64,000 nucleotides of DNA from Candidatus Multivoradales bacterium. GTDB lineage: Bacteria > Acidobacteriota > Thermoanaerobaculia > Multivoradales > JAHEKO01. Where the stretch lies: assembly GCA_965223855.1 (NCBI GenBank), contig CBDCXM010000002.1:192001-256000 (forward strand), given 5' to 3'. Both the position numbers and the translations under genes were made by a program. The first letter of the stretch is position 1; each line of letters starts with the position of its first letter. The notes beneath the pieces are model-generated. The model saw only the letters and a list, made by a program, of their open reading frames with translations. It was not told the origin of the DNA and did not search any database. Below are positions 1,990-37,904 of the stretch, piece after piece.

Positions 1990-2023
1990 CTGTGGAGAGA
2001 TCGTGGATCGAGGAGGGCGAGCG

Positions 2024-2371
2024 ATGATCGAACTCATCTGCACCCGCACCTGAACGACCTGCCGCAAGGCGGTCGCCTTGCTCGAAGAGAAAGGGGCCGA
2101 GTACCGCTACCGCGAGTACCGGAGCGATCCGCTTTCCGTCGATGAGATTCGCGCCGTCCTCGCCAAACTCGGCGTCGAGCCGGTCGAGGTGCTGCGAAGG
2201 CGTGACCGGGCGTGGAAGGAGCTCGACCTGACCGGCGAGGAGACCGCCGAGGACTGGATCGCCCACATGGCGGCGCATCCGACGCTGCTCCAGCGTCCGA
2301 TTGCCGTGCGCGGCGATCGCGCGGTGGTCGGCCGGCCGGTGGAGCGACTGCTCGAGCTGCTCGAAGACTGA
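2024..2371 (+). CDS. ArsC/Spx/YffB-family thioredoxin-fold protein, candidate selenoprotein (UxxC; in-frame TGA 2051-2053)
   Basis: SD AGGAGG at 2011-2016, then ATG 2024 reading MIELICTRT-TGA-TTCRKAVALLEEKG, in frame with ORF 2078-2371 (LLQRPI motif). TGA sits at the first Cys of the family CxxCRKA motif. Confidence 0.8.
2055..2094 (+). promoter_or_regulatory. Putative bacterial SECIS hairpin(s) 3' of the UGA
   Basis: CGACC-U-GCC[GCAA]GGC-GGUCG (2055-2075) followed by CCUU-G-CUC[GAA]GAG-A-AAGG (2076-2094). Both loops start with G. Confidence 0.5.
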
Positions 2372-2476
2372 GGAGCGGAGCTACCGGGTGCGAGTCGTCG
2401 GTACGGGGTCCAGGTCGGAGCGCAGTTCGAGGTGCAGTCGCAGGCCCGGTTCGAGATGCGGCCGGGTGACTCGAGC

Positions 2477-3751
2477 ATGACCCTCGAGCTCGCGGATCGG
2501 GATCGCGCCCGGCTTGCGGGAGAGGAGGGCGAGGCGGCGAGGCTCGCCATGCAGGTGCTCGTCGACATGGCCGAGATCTACGGTGCGCGACGGCTGCTCG
2601 ACATCGAGTCGGCGCACGTCGACGGCTGCCTCTACCACGGCGACTCGGGGATCGACTTTGCACAGCGCCTCGTCGCGGGCGGCGGCCGGGTCGCGGTTCC
2701 GACGACGCTCAATGTCGGGGCGCTCGACCTGCTGCATCCCGACGCGTTCCAGGGAGACGAGGTTCGCCGCGGCAAGGCGGGGCGGCTGATGGAGCTCTAT
2801 CGCGACCTCGGCTGCGAGCCGACCTGGACCTGTGCCCCCTACCAGATCGGCCATCGGCCGGCGCTGGGCGCGCAGGTCGCCTGGGCCGAGAGCAACGCGA
2901 TCGTCTTCGTCAATTCGGTCCTCGGTGCGCGCACGAACCGGTACGGCGATTTCATCGACATCTGCGCGGCGCTGACCGGCCGGGCTCCTGACTGCGGCCT
3001 CCACCAGCAGGGAGCGCGCCGCGCCACGCGCGTCTACCGTCTGGAGGGCTTTCCGCAGCGGCTGCTCGAGAGTCCGATGCTGGCGCCGGTGCTCGGCTAC
3101 GCCGTCGGGGCGGACTGCGCCGGTGCCGTTCCCGCCATCGTCGGTCTGCCACCGACGACGGGAGAGGATTTCCTGAAGGCTCTGGGCGCCGCTGCAGCCT
3201 CTTCCGGGGCGGTCGCCCTCTTCCACGCCGTCGGCGTGACGCCGGAGGCGCCCACCCTGGAAGCGGCGCTCCAGGGGGAGGAGCCGACGACGGAGAGGGT
3301 CCTGACGCCGGCCGACCTGGCACCGGTGCTGGCGAAGCTCTCGACCGTGCCCGACGGTGAGATCGCCGCCGTGGCGCTCGGCAGCCCTCACTTCTCCCTC
3401 GACGAGTTCGAGCGCCTGCTGCCGCTGGTGGAGGCGTACCCACCGTTGCCGTCGGTCGAGTTCGTCGTCTGCACGCATCGGGTTGCCCTTGCCGCTCTCG
3501 AGGCGCGGGGCGCCGCCGAGCGGCTCCGTCGCGCCGGGGTGCGGGTGATCGTCGATACCTGCGTGGTCGTGACCCCGATCCTGCGGACCGTCTCGGGGGC
3601 CCTGATGACCGATTCCGGCAAGTTCGCTCACTACACTCCGGGCAACACCGGTCTCGAAGTGATCTTCGGCTCGCTCGAAGAGTGCGTGCGCTCGGCCCAT
3701 CAGGGGACGGTGTGGCGCGATCGCGAGTTGTGGGCGGAGGCGACCTCGTGA
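2477..3751 (+). CDS. Aconitase X catalytic (large) subunit, DUF521
   Basis: Motifs AHVDGC, PTTLNV, TWTCAPY, AWAESNA, NSVLGARTNRYGD, GSPHFS, DTC, TDSGK. Start may be 2456. Confidence 0.88.
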   Translation: MTLELADRDRARLAGEEGEAARLAMQVLVDMAEIYGARRLLDIESAHVDGCLYHGDSGIDFAQRLVAGGGRVAVPTTLNVGALDLLHPDAFQGDEVRRGKAGRLMELYRDLGCEPTWTCAPYQIGHRPALGAQVAWAESNAIVFVNSVLGARTNRYGDFIDICAALTGRAPDCGLHQQGARRATRVYRLEGFPQRLLESPMLAPVLGYAVGADCAGAVPAIVGLPPTTGEDFLKALGAAAASSGAVALFHAVGVTPEAPTLEAALQGEEPTTERVLTPADLAPVLAKLSTVPDGEIAAVALGSPHFSLDEFERLLPLVEAYPPLPSVEFVVCTHRVALAALEARGAAERLRRAGVRVIVDTCVVVTPILRTVSGALMTDSGKFAHYTPGNTGLEVIFGSLEECVRSAHQGTVWRDRELWAEATS

Positions 3752-4218
3752 CCGGGGAGCGGACACCGGGTGGGCGGCCCGGAGGGAGAGGAGACGGCGC
3801 CGTGAGCTGCCGCAACCTCGTCGCCGGCAGTGCCGAAGGGAGAGTCGTCGTGCTGGAAGAGCCGCTGAGCTTCTGGGGCGGCTTCGACCCGGAGACCGGC
3901 CGGGTGATCGACCGGCGGCACCCGCAGAAGGGAGCCCGCCTGAGCGGCCGGATGGTCGCCCTCCCTGCCGGCCGCGGATCGAGCAGCGCCAGCAGCGTGC
4001 TGCTGGAGGCGATCCGGCTCGGAACGGCGCCCGCGGCTCTGCTGCTCGGCGAGGCCGACGGCATCCTGGCGCTGGGCGCGGTCGTCGGGCGTGAGCTCTA
4101 CGGCACGGCGCCCGCGCTGGTCGTCGTGCCGGCCGCCGCCCACGGCGAACTGCGGGACGGCGCCTTGGCCGTCGTCGACGAGTCGGGGCTCCTCACCGTC
4201 GACGGCCGGGAGTCGTGA
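3748..4218 (+). CDS. Aconitase X swivel (small) subunit, DUF126
   Basis: PLSFWGGFDPETG...HP...GRGSSSAS. GTGA overlap with the large subunit. Alternative start 3802. Confidence 0.88.
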   Translation: MTGERTPGGRPGGRGDGAVSCRNLVAGSAEGRVVVLEEPLSFWGGFDPETGRVIDRRHPQKGARLSGRMVALPAGRGSSSASSVLLEAIRLGTAPAALLLGEADGILALGAVVGRELYGTAPALVVVPAAAHGELRDGALAVVDESGLLTVDGRES

Positions 4219-5984
4219 TAAGTCTGACGACAGCCAAGCCCGGGATGGGGACCGGGGGTGGAGGTCGCGTGAGGCGAGGATCCAAGGTCGAGCAGGTGTG
4301 CCGCAGGCAGAGCGCCTGCGTGCAGGTCGTCGGTATGCTGGCGGTCGGCGCAGCACTGTGGCTCGGCTGCGCCCGTACCGAGCAGGTGGATCTGGTGCTG
4401 CGGGGCGGCACGCTCTACGACGGCTCAGGCTCCGCGCCCCGTGTCGGCGACGTGGCGATCGACGGCGACCGGATCCTGGCGGTCGCCGAGACGCTCGACG
4501 GGTACCGGGGTGTCGAGGAGATCGACGTCAGCGGGCTCGCGGTCGCGCCCGGTTTCGTCAACATGCTCAGTTGGGCGACCGAGAGCCTGCTCGAGGATCC
4601 GCGCGCTCAAAGCGACATCCGCCAGGGCGTGACCCTGGAGGTCTTCGGGGAGGGCTGGTCGATGGGCCCTCTCAACGAAGCGATGACGGCGGAGATGGTC
4701 GAGCGCCAGGGGGACATCCGCTACGACATCGAATGGACGACGCTCGGCGGCTACCTCGAGCATCTGGAAGGGCGGGGGGTCGCTCCCAACGTGGCCTCCT
4801 ATGTCGGGGCGACGACGGTGCGGATCCACGAGCTCGGCTACGAGGATCGCGCTCCGACCGCCGAGGAGCTCGATCGCATGAGGGGCCTCGTCGCGGCGGC
4901 GATGAAGGAGGGGGCGCTCGGCGTCGGCTCGTCGCTGATCTACGCGCCCGCCTACTACGCCTCGACCGACGAGCTGGTGGCGCTGGCGAGCGAGGCCGCG
5001 AGCTACGGAGGGCTCTACGTCTCCCACATCCGCAGCGAGGGTGACGGGCTGCTCGAGGCGATCGACGAGCTGGTCGAGATCTCGCGGCGATCCGGCGCTC
5101 GCGCGGAGATCTACCACCTCAAGGCGTCGCGCCCCGACAACTGGTCGAAGCTCGAGCCGGCGATCGAGAAGATCGAGGCGGCGCGGCGCTCCGGGCTCGA
5201 CATCGCCGCCAACATCTACACCTATCCGGCGAGCGCGACCGGGCTCGACGCCGCGATGCCGGCCTGGGTCCAGGAAGGGGGGCACGAGGCGTGGGTCGCG
5301 CGTCTGAAGGACCCGGCGGTGCGCGATCGTCTGCGCGAGGAGCTGGATCTCCTGCCTCCCGAGAAGATGCTCTTCATCGATTTCCGCAACGAGGCGCTGG
5401 CACCGCTGATCGGCAAGACGCTGGCGGAGGTCTCCGAGATCCGCGGCACCACACCCGAGGACACGGTGATGGATCTCGTCATCGAGGACGACAGCCGAGT
5501 CGGCACGATCTACTTCTCGATGTCCGAGGAGAACGTGCGCCGCAAGGTCGCCGTTCCGTGGGTGAGCTTCGGTTCCGACGCCGGGGCCCCATCGACCGAA
5601 GGGGTGTTCATCGAGTCGAGCACCCATCCTCGCGCCTACGGCACCTTCGCGCGGCTCCTCGGGCGCTATGTGCGCGAAGAGCGGGTCATCCCGCTCGAGG
5701 AGGCGGTTCGACGCCTCACCTCATGGCCGGCGACGAGGCTCGGCATCGAGGAGCGGGGGCGGCTCGAAGCGGGTCTCTACGCCGACCTGGCGGTCTTCGA
5801 TCCGGACGAGGTGGGGGATCGGGCGACTTTCGAGGCGCCCCATCAGTACTCGGTCGGGATGAAGCATGTCCTCGTCAACGGCATCGCGGTTCTAAAGAAC
5901 GGCGAGCCGACCGGCGCGACACCGGGGCGTTTCGTGCGGGGGCCGGGATATGAGCGCCCGCCCGCGCAGGAGGGGGCGAGTTGA
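4215..5984 (+). CDS. N-acyl-D-amino-acid deacylase (D-aminoacylase family), probable lipoprotein
   Basis: APGFVNMLSW, QGVTLEVFGEG, SHIRSEG, IYHLK, GSDAG, HPRAYG, ADLAVFD. Lipobox LWLGC. The true start is probably further downstream (e.g. 4335). Confidence 0.85.
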   Translation: MISLTTAKPGMGTGGGGRVRRGSKVEQVCRRQSACVQVVGMLAVGAALWLGCARTEQVDLVLRGGTLYDGSGSAPRVGDVAIDGDRILAVAETLDGYRGVEEIDVSGLAVAPGFVNMLSWATESLLEDPRAQSDIRQGVTLEVFGEGWSMGPLNEAMTAEMVERQGDIRYDIEWTTLGGYLEHLEGRGVAPNVASYVGATTVRIHELGYEDRAPTAEELDRMRGLVAAAMKEGALGVGSSLIYAPAYYASTDELVALASEAASYGGLYVSHIRSEGDGLLEAIDELVEISRRSGARAEIYHLKASRPDNWSKLEPAIEKIEAARRSGLDIAANIYTYPASATGLDAAMPAWVQEGGHEAWVARLKDPAVRDRLREELDLLPPEKMLFIDFRNEALAPLIGKTLAEVSEIRGTTPEDTVMDLVIEDDSRVGTIYFSMSEENVRRKVAVPWVSFGSDAGAPSTEGVFIESSTHPRAYGTFARLLGRYVREERVIPLEEAVRRLTSWPATRLGIEERGRLEAGLYADLAVFDPDEVGDRATFEAPHQYSVGMKHVLVNGIAVLKNGEPTGATPGRFVRGPGYERPPAQEGAS

Positions 5985-37208: not shown

Positions 37209-37904
37209 TTACGGTGTGGGCTGGTCGTTGCTGAAGGCGTCGCTGCGCGGATCCCAGAACGGATCGTCGAGGCCCAGATCGGCGAAGATCGCCACCATCT
37301 CGGCAGGATCGGGACGGCGGCTGTCGGGCTGCAACCGGGTCGAGTACCAGGTTTCGGCCAGGTGCCAGAGCTGATCCATCGTGACCAGCGGGCGCTTCGG
37401 GTGATTCCCCGCTGTGCACCATTCGACGACCGCCTCCTCCGACCGGAAGAAGAGCATGTTGTGTCAGGTGAAGACGAGGTCGTCCCACCAGTGCGCGGCC
37501 GGGACGAGGCAGTGGAACAGCCAGTCGCTCGGCGGAGGGCCGTCGGCACCGACCTCGAGAGACAGAGGCTCGAGCGTCTGCTCGCAGCGCGAGCGCACCG
37601 AGCAGGATTGCTGCAGCGCCGCCGGGATGCCGAGCGCGTCCCAGGCACAGTTGGCGAAGTAACGGCGGTCCGCGGACTCGACGAAGTGCTGGGTCTCGGC
37701 GGCGGAGAACGGGGGTGCCATGCGAATGCGACGACCGCCGGCCTCGAGGTAGAGCACTCTGGCCACCCGGAGTCGACCGAATCCGGCGACGACGTCGTCC
37801 TCCACGACGCCGAGCTGCGAGGCGAGTTGGCGCGGGGTGGGTGCGTCGCCGGTGTCGGCGAAGTGCCGGTAGACGGCCAGCTTGAGATCGAGGTCGAAGC
37901 TCAT
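37209..37904 (-). CDS. Organomercurial lyase MerB-like protein, candidate selenoprotein (in-frame TGA at 37464-37466)
   Basis: N-terminal wHTH, MAPPFS..T.H, NCAWDALG (Cys96/Asp99 equivalent), then WWDDLVFT-TGA-HNMLFFRSEE continuing in frame into ORF 37209-37457. Confidence 0.85.
37433..37452 (-). promoter_or_regulatory. Putative bacterial SECIS for the MerB-like gene
   Basis: CUUCUUCC[GGUC]GGAGGAGG: an 8-bp stem with a G-starting tetraloop 19 nt after the UGA. Confidence 0.6.

What the first reader, a model, noticed from the sequence alone, without database searches (positions are those of the whole stretch)
2024..2371. ArsC/Spx-family protein with a UxxC redox motif (second candidate selenoprotein)
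Seen: a strong SD (AGGAGG) and ATG 2024 give MIELICTRT-UGA-TTCRKA, in frame with the 97-aa ORF, which otherwise lacks the family's N-terminal active site. A stable hairpin CGACC(U)GCC[GCAA]GGCGGUCG starts 2 nt after the UGA, and a second G-loop hairpin has its loop about 30 nt downstream. Established: ArsC/Spx/YffB proteins carry CxxC/CxxS here, and Sec usually replaces the first Cys. The extra Cys 4 residues upstream (C-x3-U-x2-C) is unusual. Caveat: the first loop is closer (10 nt) than the canonical SECIS spacing.
Basis: partly seen in the sequence, partly recalled or inferred. Interest (0 to 1): 0.72.

Follow-up and report, generated by a model that had tools for sequence, protein, structure and literature searches.

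The report
ArsC-like selenoprotein gene with SECIS
This is a genuine but ordinary selenoprotein gene: a small arsenate-reductase-like redox protein whose active-site residue is selenocysteine, encoded by a UGA that gene callers misread as a stop, and its family was already listed as a selenoprotein in 2008.

Summary
The in-frame TGA at 2051-2053 is real and is best read as selenocysteine. 61 of 61 homologous genes I collected carry TGA at the same codon: 24 from genomes and 37 from metagenomes. Nine other homologs carry TGC or TGT there.

The genome has tRNA-Sec, selA, selB and selD.

It is a 7-bp stem with a GGUC loop at 2064-2081.
- It starts 10 nt after the UGA, and its loop starts 17 nt after.
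- It is kept through synonymous sites in the Sec forms. All 7 pairs form in 58 of 61, and the loop is GGUC in 60 of 61.
- Three pairs show compensatory double changes.
- None of the 9 Cys forms has the full hairpin.

The protein is 115 aa, with the motif C6-x3-U10-x2-C13. It has the glutaredoxin-type ArsC fold (TM 0.90-0.92) and invariant arginines at 58, 91 and 104. It scores below the NCBIfam cut-offs for ArsC and Spx. It has no ars neighbours, and I found no arsenite pump in the genome. The substrate is therefore open.

A near-identical sequence is listed under "Arsenate reductase 2 (UxxC)" in the supplement of Zhang and Gladyshev 2008. This gene is thus a new, mis-annotated member of a known selenoprotein kind. 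Interest is low to moderate.

The parts
2010..2016 (+). Shine-Dalgarno-like GAGGAGG, 7 nt before the start codon
   Evidence: Read directly. An SD-like core lies within -20..-4 in 31 of 59 Sec-form homologs.
2024..2371 (+). Full coding sequence of the selenoprotein. It gives 115 aa with U at residue 10, and the terminal stop TGA is at 2369-2371.
   Evidence: Translation with TGA=U. Pfam ArsC PF03960, 55.5 bits against a cut-off of 24. AlphaFold2 pLDDT 94.4. Homologs align from residue 1.
2039..2041 (+). Codon of Cys6, four residues before the Sec. It aligns with the His of the HNPxC motif in classical ArsC.
   Evidence: C in 24 of 24 genome-derived Sec forms. Nearly invariant (90% or more) in 36 aligned sequences, of which 35 are Cys forms. 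Alignment with the ArsC paralog L040, IYHNPRC.
2051..2053 (+). UGA read as selenocysteine (U10), the predicted catalytic nucleophile
   Evidence: TGA at this codon in 61 of 61 Sec-form homologs and TGC/TGT in 9 of 9 Cys-form loci. It aligns with the catalytic Cys of V. cholerae ArsC and with Cys10 of Spx.
2060..2062 (+). Codon of Cys13, the predicted resolving cysteine of the UxxC motif
   Evidence: Invariant in alignment A5. It aligns with Spx Cys13 and with Ser of the CxxS motif in ArsC.
2064..2081 (+). Bacterial SECIS hairpin. The stem is 2064-2070 paired with 2075-2081 (GCAAGGC/GCCUUGC), and the apical loop GGUC is at 2071-2074.
   Evidence: RNAalifold predicts exactly this helix on 61 sequences. 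99.3% of cells are paired, 3 pairs have compensatory changes, and 0 of 500 shuffles reach these values. Synonymous codons are frozen in Sec forms and free in Cys forms. Energy -12.5 kcal/mol.
2078..2371 (+). The truncated 97-aa ORF from TTG that gene callers report instead. It lacks strand beta-1 and the active site.
   Evidence: ORF list. The database entry P0002 is exactly this call.
2195..2197 (+). Codon of Arg58, first of three invariant arginines
   Evidence: Invariant in A2 and A5. It aligns with an Arg of V. cholerae ArsC 3f0i and with Ser in Spx.
2294..2296 (+). Codon of Arg91, in the RPI motif
   Evidence: Invariant. It aligns with Arg in ArsC and in Spx.
2333..2335 (+). Codon of Arg104, in the GRP motif
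   Evidence: Invariant. It aligns with Arg in ArsC 3f0i and 3rdw and with Tyr in Spx.

Best explanation
Window 2024-2371 (+) encodes a 115-residue selenoprotein of the ArsC/Spx/YffB thioredoxin-like superfamily.

Decoding. When the ribosome reaches the UGA at 2051-2053, about 10 nt downstream are held inside it. The next 18 nt (2064-2081) fold into a 7-bp hairpin with a GGUC loop. SelB, loaded with Sec-tRNA(Sec), binds this bacterial SECIS and delivers selenocysteine instead of termination. The hairpin lies inside the coding sequence for R-K-A-V-A-L-L and is written almost wholly through codon choice.

Chemistry (inferred, not shown). U10 sits at the N-terminal cap of helix 1, where ArsC has its catalytic Cys and Spx has Cys10. 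Its selenolate attacks the substrate. Cys13 resolves the adduct into an intramolecular selenenylsulfide, which a thioredoxin- or glutaredoxin-type reductant then re-reduces. Cys6 stands where ArsC has the His of HNPxC. It either tunes the active site or acts as a second resolving thiol.

Substrate (not known). The three invariant arginines (58, 91, 104) match the arginines of glutaredoxin-type arsenate reductase, so an anionic or oxyanion substrate is most likely. I put this at about 45% for some oxyanion, of which about 25% for arsenate itself.
For: Sec decoding:
- TGA is at the same codon in 19 of 19 close homologs among 61 related genomes and in 5 of 5 more from a 401-genome phylum sample.
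- 37 of 80 fetched metagenome loci proved homologous by their residue-22+ tail, and all 37 carry the hairpin.
- The 9 codons upstream of the TGA are conserved as protein. Non-majority letters by codon position are 99, 68 and 162. L4, I5, C6 and T9 are near-invariant in the genome-derived set.
- Cys homologs have TGC or TGT at the site in 9 of 9 genome loci.
- The Sec machinery is in the same genome: tRNA-Sec at 72.7 bits, called SeC(tca) by ARAGORN; selB at 301 bits (327.6 with the C-terminal piece); selA at 486 bits; selD at 247 bits.

SECIS:
- RNAalifold on 61 sequences returns only the 14-20/25-31 helix.
- 99.3% of cells pair. Compensatory double changes occur at three different pairs: L025 AU>GC, L055 CG>UA, L142 GC>AU. 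There are 3 G-U wobbles. 0 of 500 shuffles reach these values.
- Codon choice is frozen in Sec forms: GCG 61/61, GTC 60/60, GCC 59/60, TTG 57/61.
- In the 9 Cys forms the same peptide uses GCC/GCG 4/4, GTC/GTG 5/4 and four different Leu codons. None of the 9 has the full hairpin, and 1 of 9 has a GGUC loop.
- With UGA+10 nt held unpaired, the minimum-energy fold is exactly this hairpin.
- The geometry matches the E. coli fdhF element as described in PMC8659212 (passages read): an upper stem-loop at nt 15-31, 11 nt from the UGA, with G23 and U24 in the loop. Here the hairpin is at nt 14-31, 10 nt from the UGA, with loop GGUC at 21-24.
- A second candidate selenoprotein gene in the same window, MerB-like, has a GGUC-loop hairpin 19 nt after its UGA.

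Protein:
- Pfam ArsC at 7e-15.
- AlphaFold2 pLDDT 94.4.
- Best structural matches are glutaredoxin-type ArsC: 3rdw, 3f0i and 1i9d at TMq 0.90-0.92, rmsd 1.3-1.8 A. Spx gives 0.75-0.83 and YffB 0.77.
- U10 aligns with the catalytic Cys, and R58, R91 and R104 align with arginines of ArsC. All three are invariant in 36 sequences.
Against: - There is no experimental evidence of selenium incorporation.
- No Rfam family matched the region at E <= 10 other than three chance-level hits.
- The stem has no bulged U like fdhF U17, and the loop is shifted 1 nt.
- 3 of 61 Sec forms have one mismatch in the stem (L057 C.A, L058 A.C, L059 A.G), and 1 of 61 has a GCUC loop (L026).
- For the 37 metagenome rows my search pattern fixed columns 1-3, 7-8 and 10-14. 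The 5' base of pair 14-31 was therefore fixed by construction in those rows.

Against an arsenate role:
- TIGR00014 scores 85.4 bits, below its cut-off of 106.05.
- No ars gene lies next to the gene here or in 31 other loci examined.
- Neither Acr3 nor ArsB was found in this 92.5%-complete genome.

The numbering of the ArsC arginines (R60, R94, R107) and of His8 is recalled, not taken from a call. Only the PDB titles 'R60K', 'R60A' and 'C12S' support it.
Confidence: 0.85

Rival explanations
1. The UGA is a true stop. It ends a 9-codon leader peptide, and the real product is the 97-aa protein from TTG 2078, as gene callers report.
For: The database holds exactly this 97-aa call for the window (P0002). 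79 of the 120 best-listed homologs are 94-105 aa calls covering 81-85% of the query. TTG 2078 is an allowed start.
Against: The 97-aa product would lack strand beta-1 and the whole active-site motif, which full-length Cys homologs keep. The 9 upstream codons are conserved as protein, with third-position-biased change. TTG 2078 is the Leu codon inside the conserved hairpin, and it is held as TTG in 57 of 61 Sec forms through pairing, not as a start. The truncated calls are what a caller that cannot read Sec would produce. I did not check their DNA.
Confidence: 0.04
2. The TGA is a nonsense mutation, a decaying pseudogene or an assembly error.
For: None beyond the presence of a stop codon in a single read of the window.
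Against: The same TGA occurs in 24 of 24 genome-derived close homologs at 50-69% identity, from several families of the phylum, with intact frames on both sides. The downstream hairpin is under selection.
Confidence: 0.01
3. The UGA is read through, but as another residue (Trp, Cys or Gly, by near-cognate decoding or a changed code), not as selenocysteine.
For: Two database homologs show W at the site (P0033, P0040). This could reflect a caller using a TGA=Trp table, or a real TGG. I did not check their DNA.
Against: TGA serves as an ordinary stop here. It ends the upstream amidohydrolase gene at 1987-1989 and this gene itself at 2369-2371. The full Sec machinery is present. The hairpin has the position and the GGUC loop of a SelB-binding element. 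The site is the redox-active Cys position, where Sec typically replaces Cys.
Confidence: 0.03
4. Function-level rival: it is a classical arsenic-detoxifying arsenate reductase that hands arsenite to an efflux pump.
For: The best family and structure matches are glutaredoxin-type ArsC. The catalytic position and three arginines are conserved. It is the only PF03960 gene in the genome.
Against: It scores below the ArsC equivalog cut-off, 85.4 against 106.05 bits. It has UxxC rather than the CxxS of ArsC. There are no ars neighbours in this or 31 other loci. Neither Acr3 nor ArsB was found in the genome, which is 92.5% complete.
Confidence: 0.2
5. Function-level rival: it is an Spx/MgsR-like redox-sensing regulator that binds RNA polymerase and is not an enzyme.
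For: Its redox motif has the same register as Spx C10-x-x-C13 followed by RKA. Spx structures match at E of about 1e-12 and TMq 0.75-0.83. TIGR01617 scores 65.6 bits.
Against: It is below the TIGR01617 cut-off of 75.05. It is structurally closer to ArsC, at TMq 0.90-0.92. It keeps R58 and R104, where Spx has Ser and Tyr. Spx regulators are known from Firmicutes (recalled), whereas named homologs here come from Myxococcota and other Gram-negative lineages.
Confidence: 0.07

Closest known systems
'Arsenate reductase 2 (UxxC)' selenoprotein group of the GOS selenoproteome (Zhang & Gladyshev 2008, PMC2398784). The 2022 review PMC9312934 lists it as 'Arsenate reductase-like protein, COG1393, UxxC'.
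   Same: Supplement file 3 lists, under this heading, a read that begins MLTLICKRTUTTCRKAVALL and continues colinearly to ...HPTLLQRPIG...GRPIENLL. It has the same C-x3-U-x2-C motif and the same length. By eye it is very close to metagenome locus L147 of my Sec-form set.
   Different: The GOS group is heterogeneous. Most reads shown in the passages returned under that heading have a different N-terminus (for example ...YMRGGUTTC...) and a different body. I saw only table rows and supplement passages. In what I read, the paper does not describe this subfamily's SECIS, its third Cys or its arginines.
Glutaredoxin-coupled arsenate reductase ArsC (E. coli R773 1i9d, V. cholerae 3f0i, Y. pestis 3rdw; NCBIfam TIGR00014)
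   Same: The fold is the same, at TMq 0.90-0.92 and rmsd 1.3-1.8 A. The nucleophile is at the same position, and three arginines are aligned and invariant.
   Different: It has Sec instead of Cys, an intramolecular partner Cys13 where ArsC has Ser, and Cys6 where ArsC has His. It scores below the equivalog cut-off. It has no ars operon, and no arsenite pump was found.
Spx (B. subtilis, 1z3e/3gfk; TIGR01617)
   Same: It has a CxxC-type motif at residues 10 and 13 followed by RKA, and the same superfamily fold.
   Different: It is below the cut-off (65.6 against 75.05) and structurally less similar than ArsC. Spx lacks the equivalents of R58 and R104.
E. coli fdhF SECIS (upper stem-loop)
   Same: Both are hairpins inside the coding sequence just 3' of the UGA. 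The apical loop carries G and U at nearly the same distance: positions 22-23 here and 23-24 in fdhF. The stem base is 10 nt from the UGA here and 11 nt in fdhF.
   Different: The stem here is a perfect 7-bp helix with no bulged U17, and there is no conserved lower stem. That the fdhF loop reads GGUC is recalled, not taken from a call.
NCBIfam NF041106 'ArsC family (seleno)protein' (ArsC_rel_Se_1)
   Same: It is also an ArsC-superfamily model made for Sec/Cys proteins.
   Different: This protein scores only 20.3 bits against a cut-off of 85. It belongs to a different subfamily that no NCBIfam model covers, which fits its routine truncation in annotation.
YffB (P. aeruginosa PA3664, 1rw1)
   Same: Same superfamily. 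It is a CxxC-type protein of unknown substrate.
   Different: It is a much weaker match, at E = 2.3e-5 and TMq 0.77.

Membership tests
Bacterial selenoprotein gene (SelB/SECIS-dependent UGA recoding) | In-frame UGA with conserved coding sequence on both sides | tested here: met
   TGA is at one codon in 24 of 24 genome-derived homologs, and the upstream 9 codons are conserved as protein.
Bacterial selenoprotein gene (SelB/SECIS-dependent UGA recoding) | Homologs with Cys at the UGA position | tested here: met
   9 of 9 loci from genome contigs have TGC or TGT. Further full-length Cys forms are in the protein database, but I did not check their DNA.
Bacterial selenoprotein gene (SelB/SECIS-dependent UGA recoding) | Stem-loop shortly 3' of the UGA, with G/U in the apical loop at about the fdhF distance, under selection | tested here: met
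   The hairpin is at 2064-2081. It is 99.3% paired in 61 sequences, with 3 compensatory pairs and a GGUC loop in 60 of 61. The full hairpin is absent from the Cys forms.
Bacterial selenoprotein gene (SelB/SECIS-dependent UGA recoding) | tRNA-Sec, SelA, SelB and SelD in the genome | tested here: met
   All four score over their cut-offs.
Bacterial selenoprotein gene (SelB/SECIS-dependent UGA recoding) | Selenium actually incorporated at the site | not testable with these tools
   This needs 75Se labelling or mass spectrometry.
ArsC/Spx/YffB superfamily (Pfam PF03960) | Profile match over the gathering score, and the thioredoxin-like ArsC fold | tested here: met
   55.5 bits against 24. Model pLDDT is 94.4, and TMq to ArsC structures is 0.90-0.92.
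Glutaredoxin-type arsenate reductase ArsC (TIGR00014 equivalog) | Score over the curated cut-off | tested here: not met
   85.4 bits against 106.05.
Glutaredoxin-type arsenate reductase ArsC (TIGR00014 equivalog) | Catalytic nucleophile at the Cys12 position and the three active-site arginines | tested here: met
   U10 aligns with the catalytic Cys, and R58, R91 and R104 align with Arg in 3f0i and are invariant. The R773 numbering is recalled.
Glutaredoxin-type arsenate reductase ArsC (TIGR00014 equivalog) | HNPxCxxSR active-site motif (His, single Cys, Ser) | tested here: not met
   The motif here is LICTRTUTTCR, with Cys for His and Cys for Ser.
Glutaredoxin-type arsenate reductase ArsC (TIGR00014 equivalog) | ars operon context, or an arsenite efflux pump in the genome | tested here: not met
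   There are no ars genes beside this gene or in 31 other loci. Acr3 and ArsB were not found in the 92.5%-complete genome.
Spx/MgsR regulators (TIGR01617) | Score over the curated cut-off | tested here: not met
   65.6 bits against 75.05.
Spx/MgsR regulators (TIGR01617) | CxxC at residues 10 and 13 | tested here: met
   U10-x-x-C13 is in the same register.
Spx/MgsR regulators (TIGR01617) | Binding to the RNA polymerase alpha C-terminal domain | not tested
   I ran no complex prediction or assay.
NCBIfam NF041106 ArsC family (seleno)protein | Score over the curated cut-off | tested here: not met
   20.3 bits against 85.
GOS 'Arsenate reductase 2 (UxxC)' selenoproteins | ArsC-superfamily protein with a UxxC motif | tested here: met
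   A listed read shares the N-terminal motif and a colinear body. I compared it by eye only and did not feed the paper's sequence to any tool.

The most novel reading that the evidence does not exclude
The protein may not be an arsenate-detoxifying enzyme at all. It could be a self-contained, glutathione-independent Cys6-Sec10-Cys13 relay reductase built on the glutaredoxin-type ArsC fold. On this reading the selenolate attacks an oxyanion held by the three arginines, possibly something other than arsenate, since the genome shows no arsenite pump. Two in-built cysteines then pass the oxidising equivalents out to thioredoxin. That would be analogous to the three-cysteine cascade of the unrelated thioredoxin-coupled (LMW-phosphatase-fold) arsenate reductases, and so a convergent solution on the other ArsC fold. 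A related and likelier side-claim is that the family flips between Sec and Cys repeatedly, using a SECIS written only in synonymous sites. The best quick tree needs 23 changes. Well-supported branches force only 4, or 1 when only DNA-verified rows are counted.
Probability: 0.12. Interest if true: 0.55.

Novelty: new member of a known kind. Interest (0 to 1): 0.3.

Why it matters
The practical value lies in annotation.
- This gene, and by inference many of its relatives, are stored in databases as 94-105 aa fragments without their active site. 79 of the 120 best-listed hits have that shape.
- No NCBIfam model covers the subfamily.
- Annotation pipelines could recognise the family by the 18-nt hairpin GCAAGGC-GGUC-GCCUUGC placed 10 nt after a TGA in the context LIC-x-x-T-TGA-x-T-C-R-K-A.

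The family is also a clean teaching case of a SECIS embedded in a conserved helix-coding segment. The same peptide is encoded with frozen codons in Sec forms and free codons in Cys forms.

Scientifically it adds no new kind of system. ArsC-like UxxC selenoproteins have been in print since 2005-2008.

Tried and rejected
- **Rfam scan** of 1900-2500 at E <= 10 gave only three chance-level hits and no SECIS family.
- **Neighbourhood analysis.** Synteny (amidohydrolase upstream, AcnX and its swivel subunit downstream) holds only within the genus and one family member. Pfam scans of stop-to-stop ORFs around 17 and 14 further loci found no recurring partner and no ars gene. Many of those ORFs had no Pfam hit and may be spurious in high-GC DNA.
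- **Earlier findings of this scan** near the place returned nothing.
- **Sec/Cys tree.** The tree is a quick one on 114 columns and is poorly resolved: 14 of 110 inner branches are starred. It holds 113 rows, and I dropped 7 partial Sec forms under 100 aa. It cannot show repeated Sec/Cys switching. With DNA-verified rows only (54 Sec, 9 Cys), the starred branches are compatible with a single change.
- **Sec machinery and the Cys forms.** The idea that Cys forms occur because Sec machinery is missing is rejected. 5 of 5 Cys-form genomes tested have SelA over the cut-off.
- **SelA in Sec-form genomes.** SelA was over the cut-off in 4 of 5. The fifth, G284, does have tRNA-Sec and SelB.
- **Residue numbering.** I tried to map residue numbers onto E. 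coli R773 ArsC through the plasmid collection. The top rows were other species, so I dropped the attempt.
- **Two malformed calls** were corrected: a structure string one character short; a search term with brackets.
Full report
**1. What is in the sequence**

- GAGGAGG lies at 2010-2016, and ATG follows at 2024.
- The frame reads MIELICTRT, then TGA at 2051-2053, then TTCRKAVALL. It continues in frame into the 97-aa ORF that the mechanical ORF list starts at TTG 2078.
- Read with TGA=U, the product is 115 residues and ends at a second TGA at 2369-2371.
- The upstream amidohydrolase gene also ends in TGA, at 1987-1989. TGA is therefore an ordinary stop in this organism.

**2. The TGA is conserved, not an accident**

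- A six-frame search of the window's genome plus 60 relatives found 19 loci, counting the window's own, with 54-69% identical homologs. In all 19 the single in-frame TGA falls on the same codon, in the context M-[IL]-x-L-I-C-x-x-T-TGA-x-T-C-R-K-A-V-A-L-L.
- Two further hits (L039, L040) are classical ArsC paralogs with HNPRCSKSR and no TGA there.
- A 401-genome sample of the phylum added 5 more Sec forms from three other families.
- A metagenome scan used a DNA pattern that fixes only I-C-x-x-T-TGA-x-T-C-R(CG). Of the 80 fetched, 37 are true homologs, judged by blastp of residues 22 onward. The other 43 are chance matches or too short.
- The nine codons upstream of the TGA change mainly at third positions: 99, 68 and 162 non-majority letters at positions 1, 2 and 3 in 59 sequences. 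That is the signature of translated sequence.
- The pattern itself fixed I5, C6 and T9 in the 37 metagenome rows. In the 24 genome-derived rows, C6 is present in 24 of 24.

**3. Cys forms exist**

- The large protein database holds full-length homologs of 109-130 aa with C-x3-C-x2-C.
- A scan of one genome per species found 9 such loci. Seven are titled Myxococcota or one of its lineages, one 'uncultured proteobacterium' and one simply 'bacterium'. All 9 have TGC or TGT at the site.
- 79 of the 120 best-listed database hits are 94-105 aa and cover only 81-85% of the query. The window's own database entry P0002 has the same shape. I take these to be Sec forms cut at the UGA, but I did not check their DNA.

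**4. The Sec machinery is present**

The same genome has 9 contigs, 4.52 Mb, and is 92.5% complete. It carries:
- tRNA-Sec at 72.7 bits, called SeC(tca) by ARAGORN;
- selB at 301 bits, or 327.6 with its C-terminal piece;
- selA at 486 bits;
- selD at 247 bits.

**5. The real SECIS**

- In the Sec forms, the DNA after the TGA is nearly invariant even at synonymous sites: TGY CGC AAG GCG GTC GCC TTG CTS.
- This encodes a perfect hairpin, GCAAGGC-[GGUC]-GCCUUGC. In window coordinates the stem is 2064-2070 paired with 2075-2081, and the loop is 2071-2074.
- RNAalifold on 61 Sec-form sequences returns exactly this helix and nothing else.

Pair counts on those 61 sequences:
- 99.3% of cells are paired.
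- Three different pairs have a compensatory double change: L025 A-U to G-C, L055 C-G to U-A, L142 G-C to A-U.
- There are three G-U wobbles and three single mismatches (L057, L058, L059).
- 0 of 500 shuffles reach the observed pairing, compensation or covariation values.

The best control is the Cys forms. They encode the same peptide CRKAVALL, but their codons vary:

| Codon | Sec forms | Cys forms (9 loci) |
|---|---|---|
| Ala (1st) | GCG 61/61 | GCC 4, GCG 4 |
| Val | GTC 60/60 | GTC 5, GTG 4 |
| Leu (1st) | TTG 57/61 | CTG 4, CTC 2, TTG 2, TTA 1 |

- Only 74.6% of cells pair in the Cys forms.
- None of the 9 has all seven pairs, against 58 of 61 Sec forms.
- 1 of 9 has a GGUC loop, against 60 of 61 Sec forms.

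The nucleotide conservation therefore belongs to the UGA, not to the protein.

**6.

- Both are the predicted minimum-energy fold of this particular sequence, at -19.0 kcal/mol.
- Across 61 sequences they are 77% and 69.6% paired and have no support over the controls. The two outer pairs of the first hairpin fail in 52 and 48 sequences.
- The first one overlaps the conserved hairpin and excludes it.
- If the UGA and the next 10 nt are held single-stranded, the minimum-energy fold becomes exactly the conserved hairpin, at -12.5 kcal/mol. The ribosome's footprint would hold them so when the UGA is in the A site. That footprint is established knowledge, not a call.
- A review describes the E. coli element as an upper stem-loop at nt 15-31, 11 nt from the UGA, with G23 and U24 in the loop and a bulged U17 (PMC8659212, passages read). 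Here the hairpin spans nt 14-31, starts 10 nt from the UGA, and has GGUC at 21-24. There is no bulge.

**7. Support from within the genome**

- I scanned the genome for TGA followed, 14-21 nt later, by a GGTC loop on a stem of at least 6 bp. This gave 19 hits.
- I followed up two with long open frames on both sides, this gene and one other. I did not examine the rest.
- The other is a MerB-like gene in the same window, at 37212-37904 (-), with its UGA at 37464-37466. It matches Pfam MerB at 1e-28, and its loop starts 19 nt after the UGA.
- 'Alkylmercury lyase MerB-like' appears in the list of prokaryotic selenoprotein families in PMC9312934 (passage seen).

**8. The protein**

- Pfam ArsC matches at 7e-15, with a weaker glutaredoxin hit.
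- No NCBIfam model reaches its cut-off:

| Model | Score (bits) | Cut-off (bits) |
|---|---|---|
| arsC TIGR00014 | 85.4 | 106.05 |
| Spx/MgsR TIGR01617 | 65.6 | 75.05 |
| ArsC_rel_Se_1 NF041106 | 20.3 | 85 |

- The AlphaFold2 model is confident: pLDDT 94.4, pTM 0.85, from 36 aligned sequences.
- It is closest to glutaredoxin-type ArsC structures. 3rdw, 3f0i and 1i9d give TMq 0.90-0.92 at rmsd 1.3-1.8 A. Spx gives 0.75-0.83 and YffB 0.77.
- In the sequence alignments U10 falls on the catalytic Cys of ArsC and on Cys10 of Spx. C13 falls on Spx Cys13 and on the Ser of ArsC.
- R58, R91 and R104 fall on arginines of V. cholerae ArsC, where Spx has Ser, Arg and Tyr. All three are invariant in 36 family members.
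- C6 aligns with the His of HNPxC.
- That these are ArsC Cys12, His8, Arg60, Arg94 and Arg107 is recalled knowledge. Only the PDB titles naming R60 and C12 mutants support it.

**9. What it does**

- Shown: the fold, the position of the Sec, and the conservation of C13 and the arginines.
- Inferred: a selenolate nucleophile, resolution by C13 to a selenenylsulfide, and re-reduction by a thioredoxin-like partner.
- The substrate is open. The arginines point to an oxyanion.
- Against arsenic detoxification: the gene is the only PF03960 member in the genome, it has no conserved neighbours and no ars neighbours in 32 loci, and I found neither Acr3 nor ArsB.
- An LMW-phosphatase-type ArsC-like hit exists elsewhere in the genome, below its cut-off at 117 against 174 bits.

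**10. Sec and Cys in the family**

- On a quick tree of 113 rows, the two forms are interleaved. I dropped 7 partial Sec forms and masked the Sec/Cys site.
- The best tree needs 23 changes, and starred branches force at least 4.
- With DNA-verified rows only (54 Sec, 9 Cys), 7 changes are needed, and the starred branches allow a single one. Repeated switching is therefore suggested, not shown.
- Cys forms are not explained by missing machinery: 5 of 5 Cys-form genomes tested have SelA.
- Of 5 Sec-form genomes, 4 have SelA over the cut-off. The fifth, G284, has tRNA-Sec and SelB.

**11. What is already known**

- ArsC-like selenoproteins appear in Zhang et al. 2006 (PMC1794560, table rows seen).
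- The GOS study lists 'Arsenate reductase (ArsC) 1, UxxS' and 'Arsenate reductase 2, UxxC' (PMC2398784, table rows seen).
- The 2022 review lists both kinds as well (PMC9312934, table rows and reference list seen).
- In supplement file 3 of the GOS paper, under 'Arsenate reductase 2 UxxC', one read begins MLTLICKRTUTTCRKAVALL and runs colinearly to the C-terminus of this family.
- This subfamily has therefore been in print as a predicted selenoprotein since 2008, although only as one sequence in a mixed group.
- In what I read, I found no description of its SECIS, its third cysteine or its arginines. I did not search specifically for such a description.

**12. Verdict**

The SECIS needed re-assigning. 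The gene is a new, mis-annotated member of a known kind of selenoprotein.

Noticed in passing
window 37212-37904 (-), UGA at 37464-37466: A second candidate selenoprotein: a 231-aa MerB-like (alkylmercury lyase family) ORF with an in-frame TGA in the context DDLVFT-U-HNMLFF. Pfam MerB matches at 1e-28, and the NCBIfam MerB models score below their cut-offs. A hairpin with a GGUC loop starts 19 nt after the UGA.
   Followed up: partly
L063, L069, L071, L074 (Sec) and L060, L061, L064, L066-L068, L070, L072, L073 (Cys), from the phylum sample: A second ArsC-like clade, 39-47% identical to this protein, has the motif [VI]YEKPT-[U/C]-x-x-C-R and no Cys at -4. It also alternates between TGA and TGY at the active site within one phylum. 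I did not examine its downstream RNA.
   Followed up: no
G000:C8:450164-451081 (-), locus L018: The selD match (247 bits) lies in a stop-to-stop open frame of 776 aa, more than twice the length of SelD. This suggests a fusion with another domain, or simply a long spurious upstream frame in high-GC DNA.
   Followed up: no
proteins P0033 and P0040: Two low-GC database homologs show Trp at the Sec/Cys position (LICTxxWGTCRKAVALL). This is either a real TGG or a TGA translated with a TGA=Trp table by the depositor's gene caller.
   Followed up: no
window 2369-2371 and 2432-3751: The gene's terminal TGA is in the same reading frame as the downstream AcnX gene, since 2432-2024 is a multiple of 3. 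I saw no reason to think the stop is read through. A weak 5-bp hairpin follows it.
   Followed up: no
window 2432-4218 (+): Aconitase X (PF04412, 5.5e-130) and its swivel-domain subunit (PF01989) lie directly downstream, between two Amidohydro_3 genes (136-1989 and 4215-5984). The arrangement is kept within the genus only.
   Followed up: partly
L057 (G284) and L058 (G304): The two Sec forms from one genus each carry a single, different mismatch in the SECIS stem (C.A and A.C). SelA was not found over the cut-off in G284, which is 95% complete, although tRNA-Sec and SelB are present in both genomes.
   Followed up: partly
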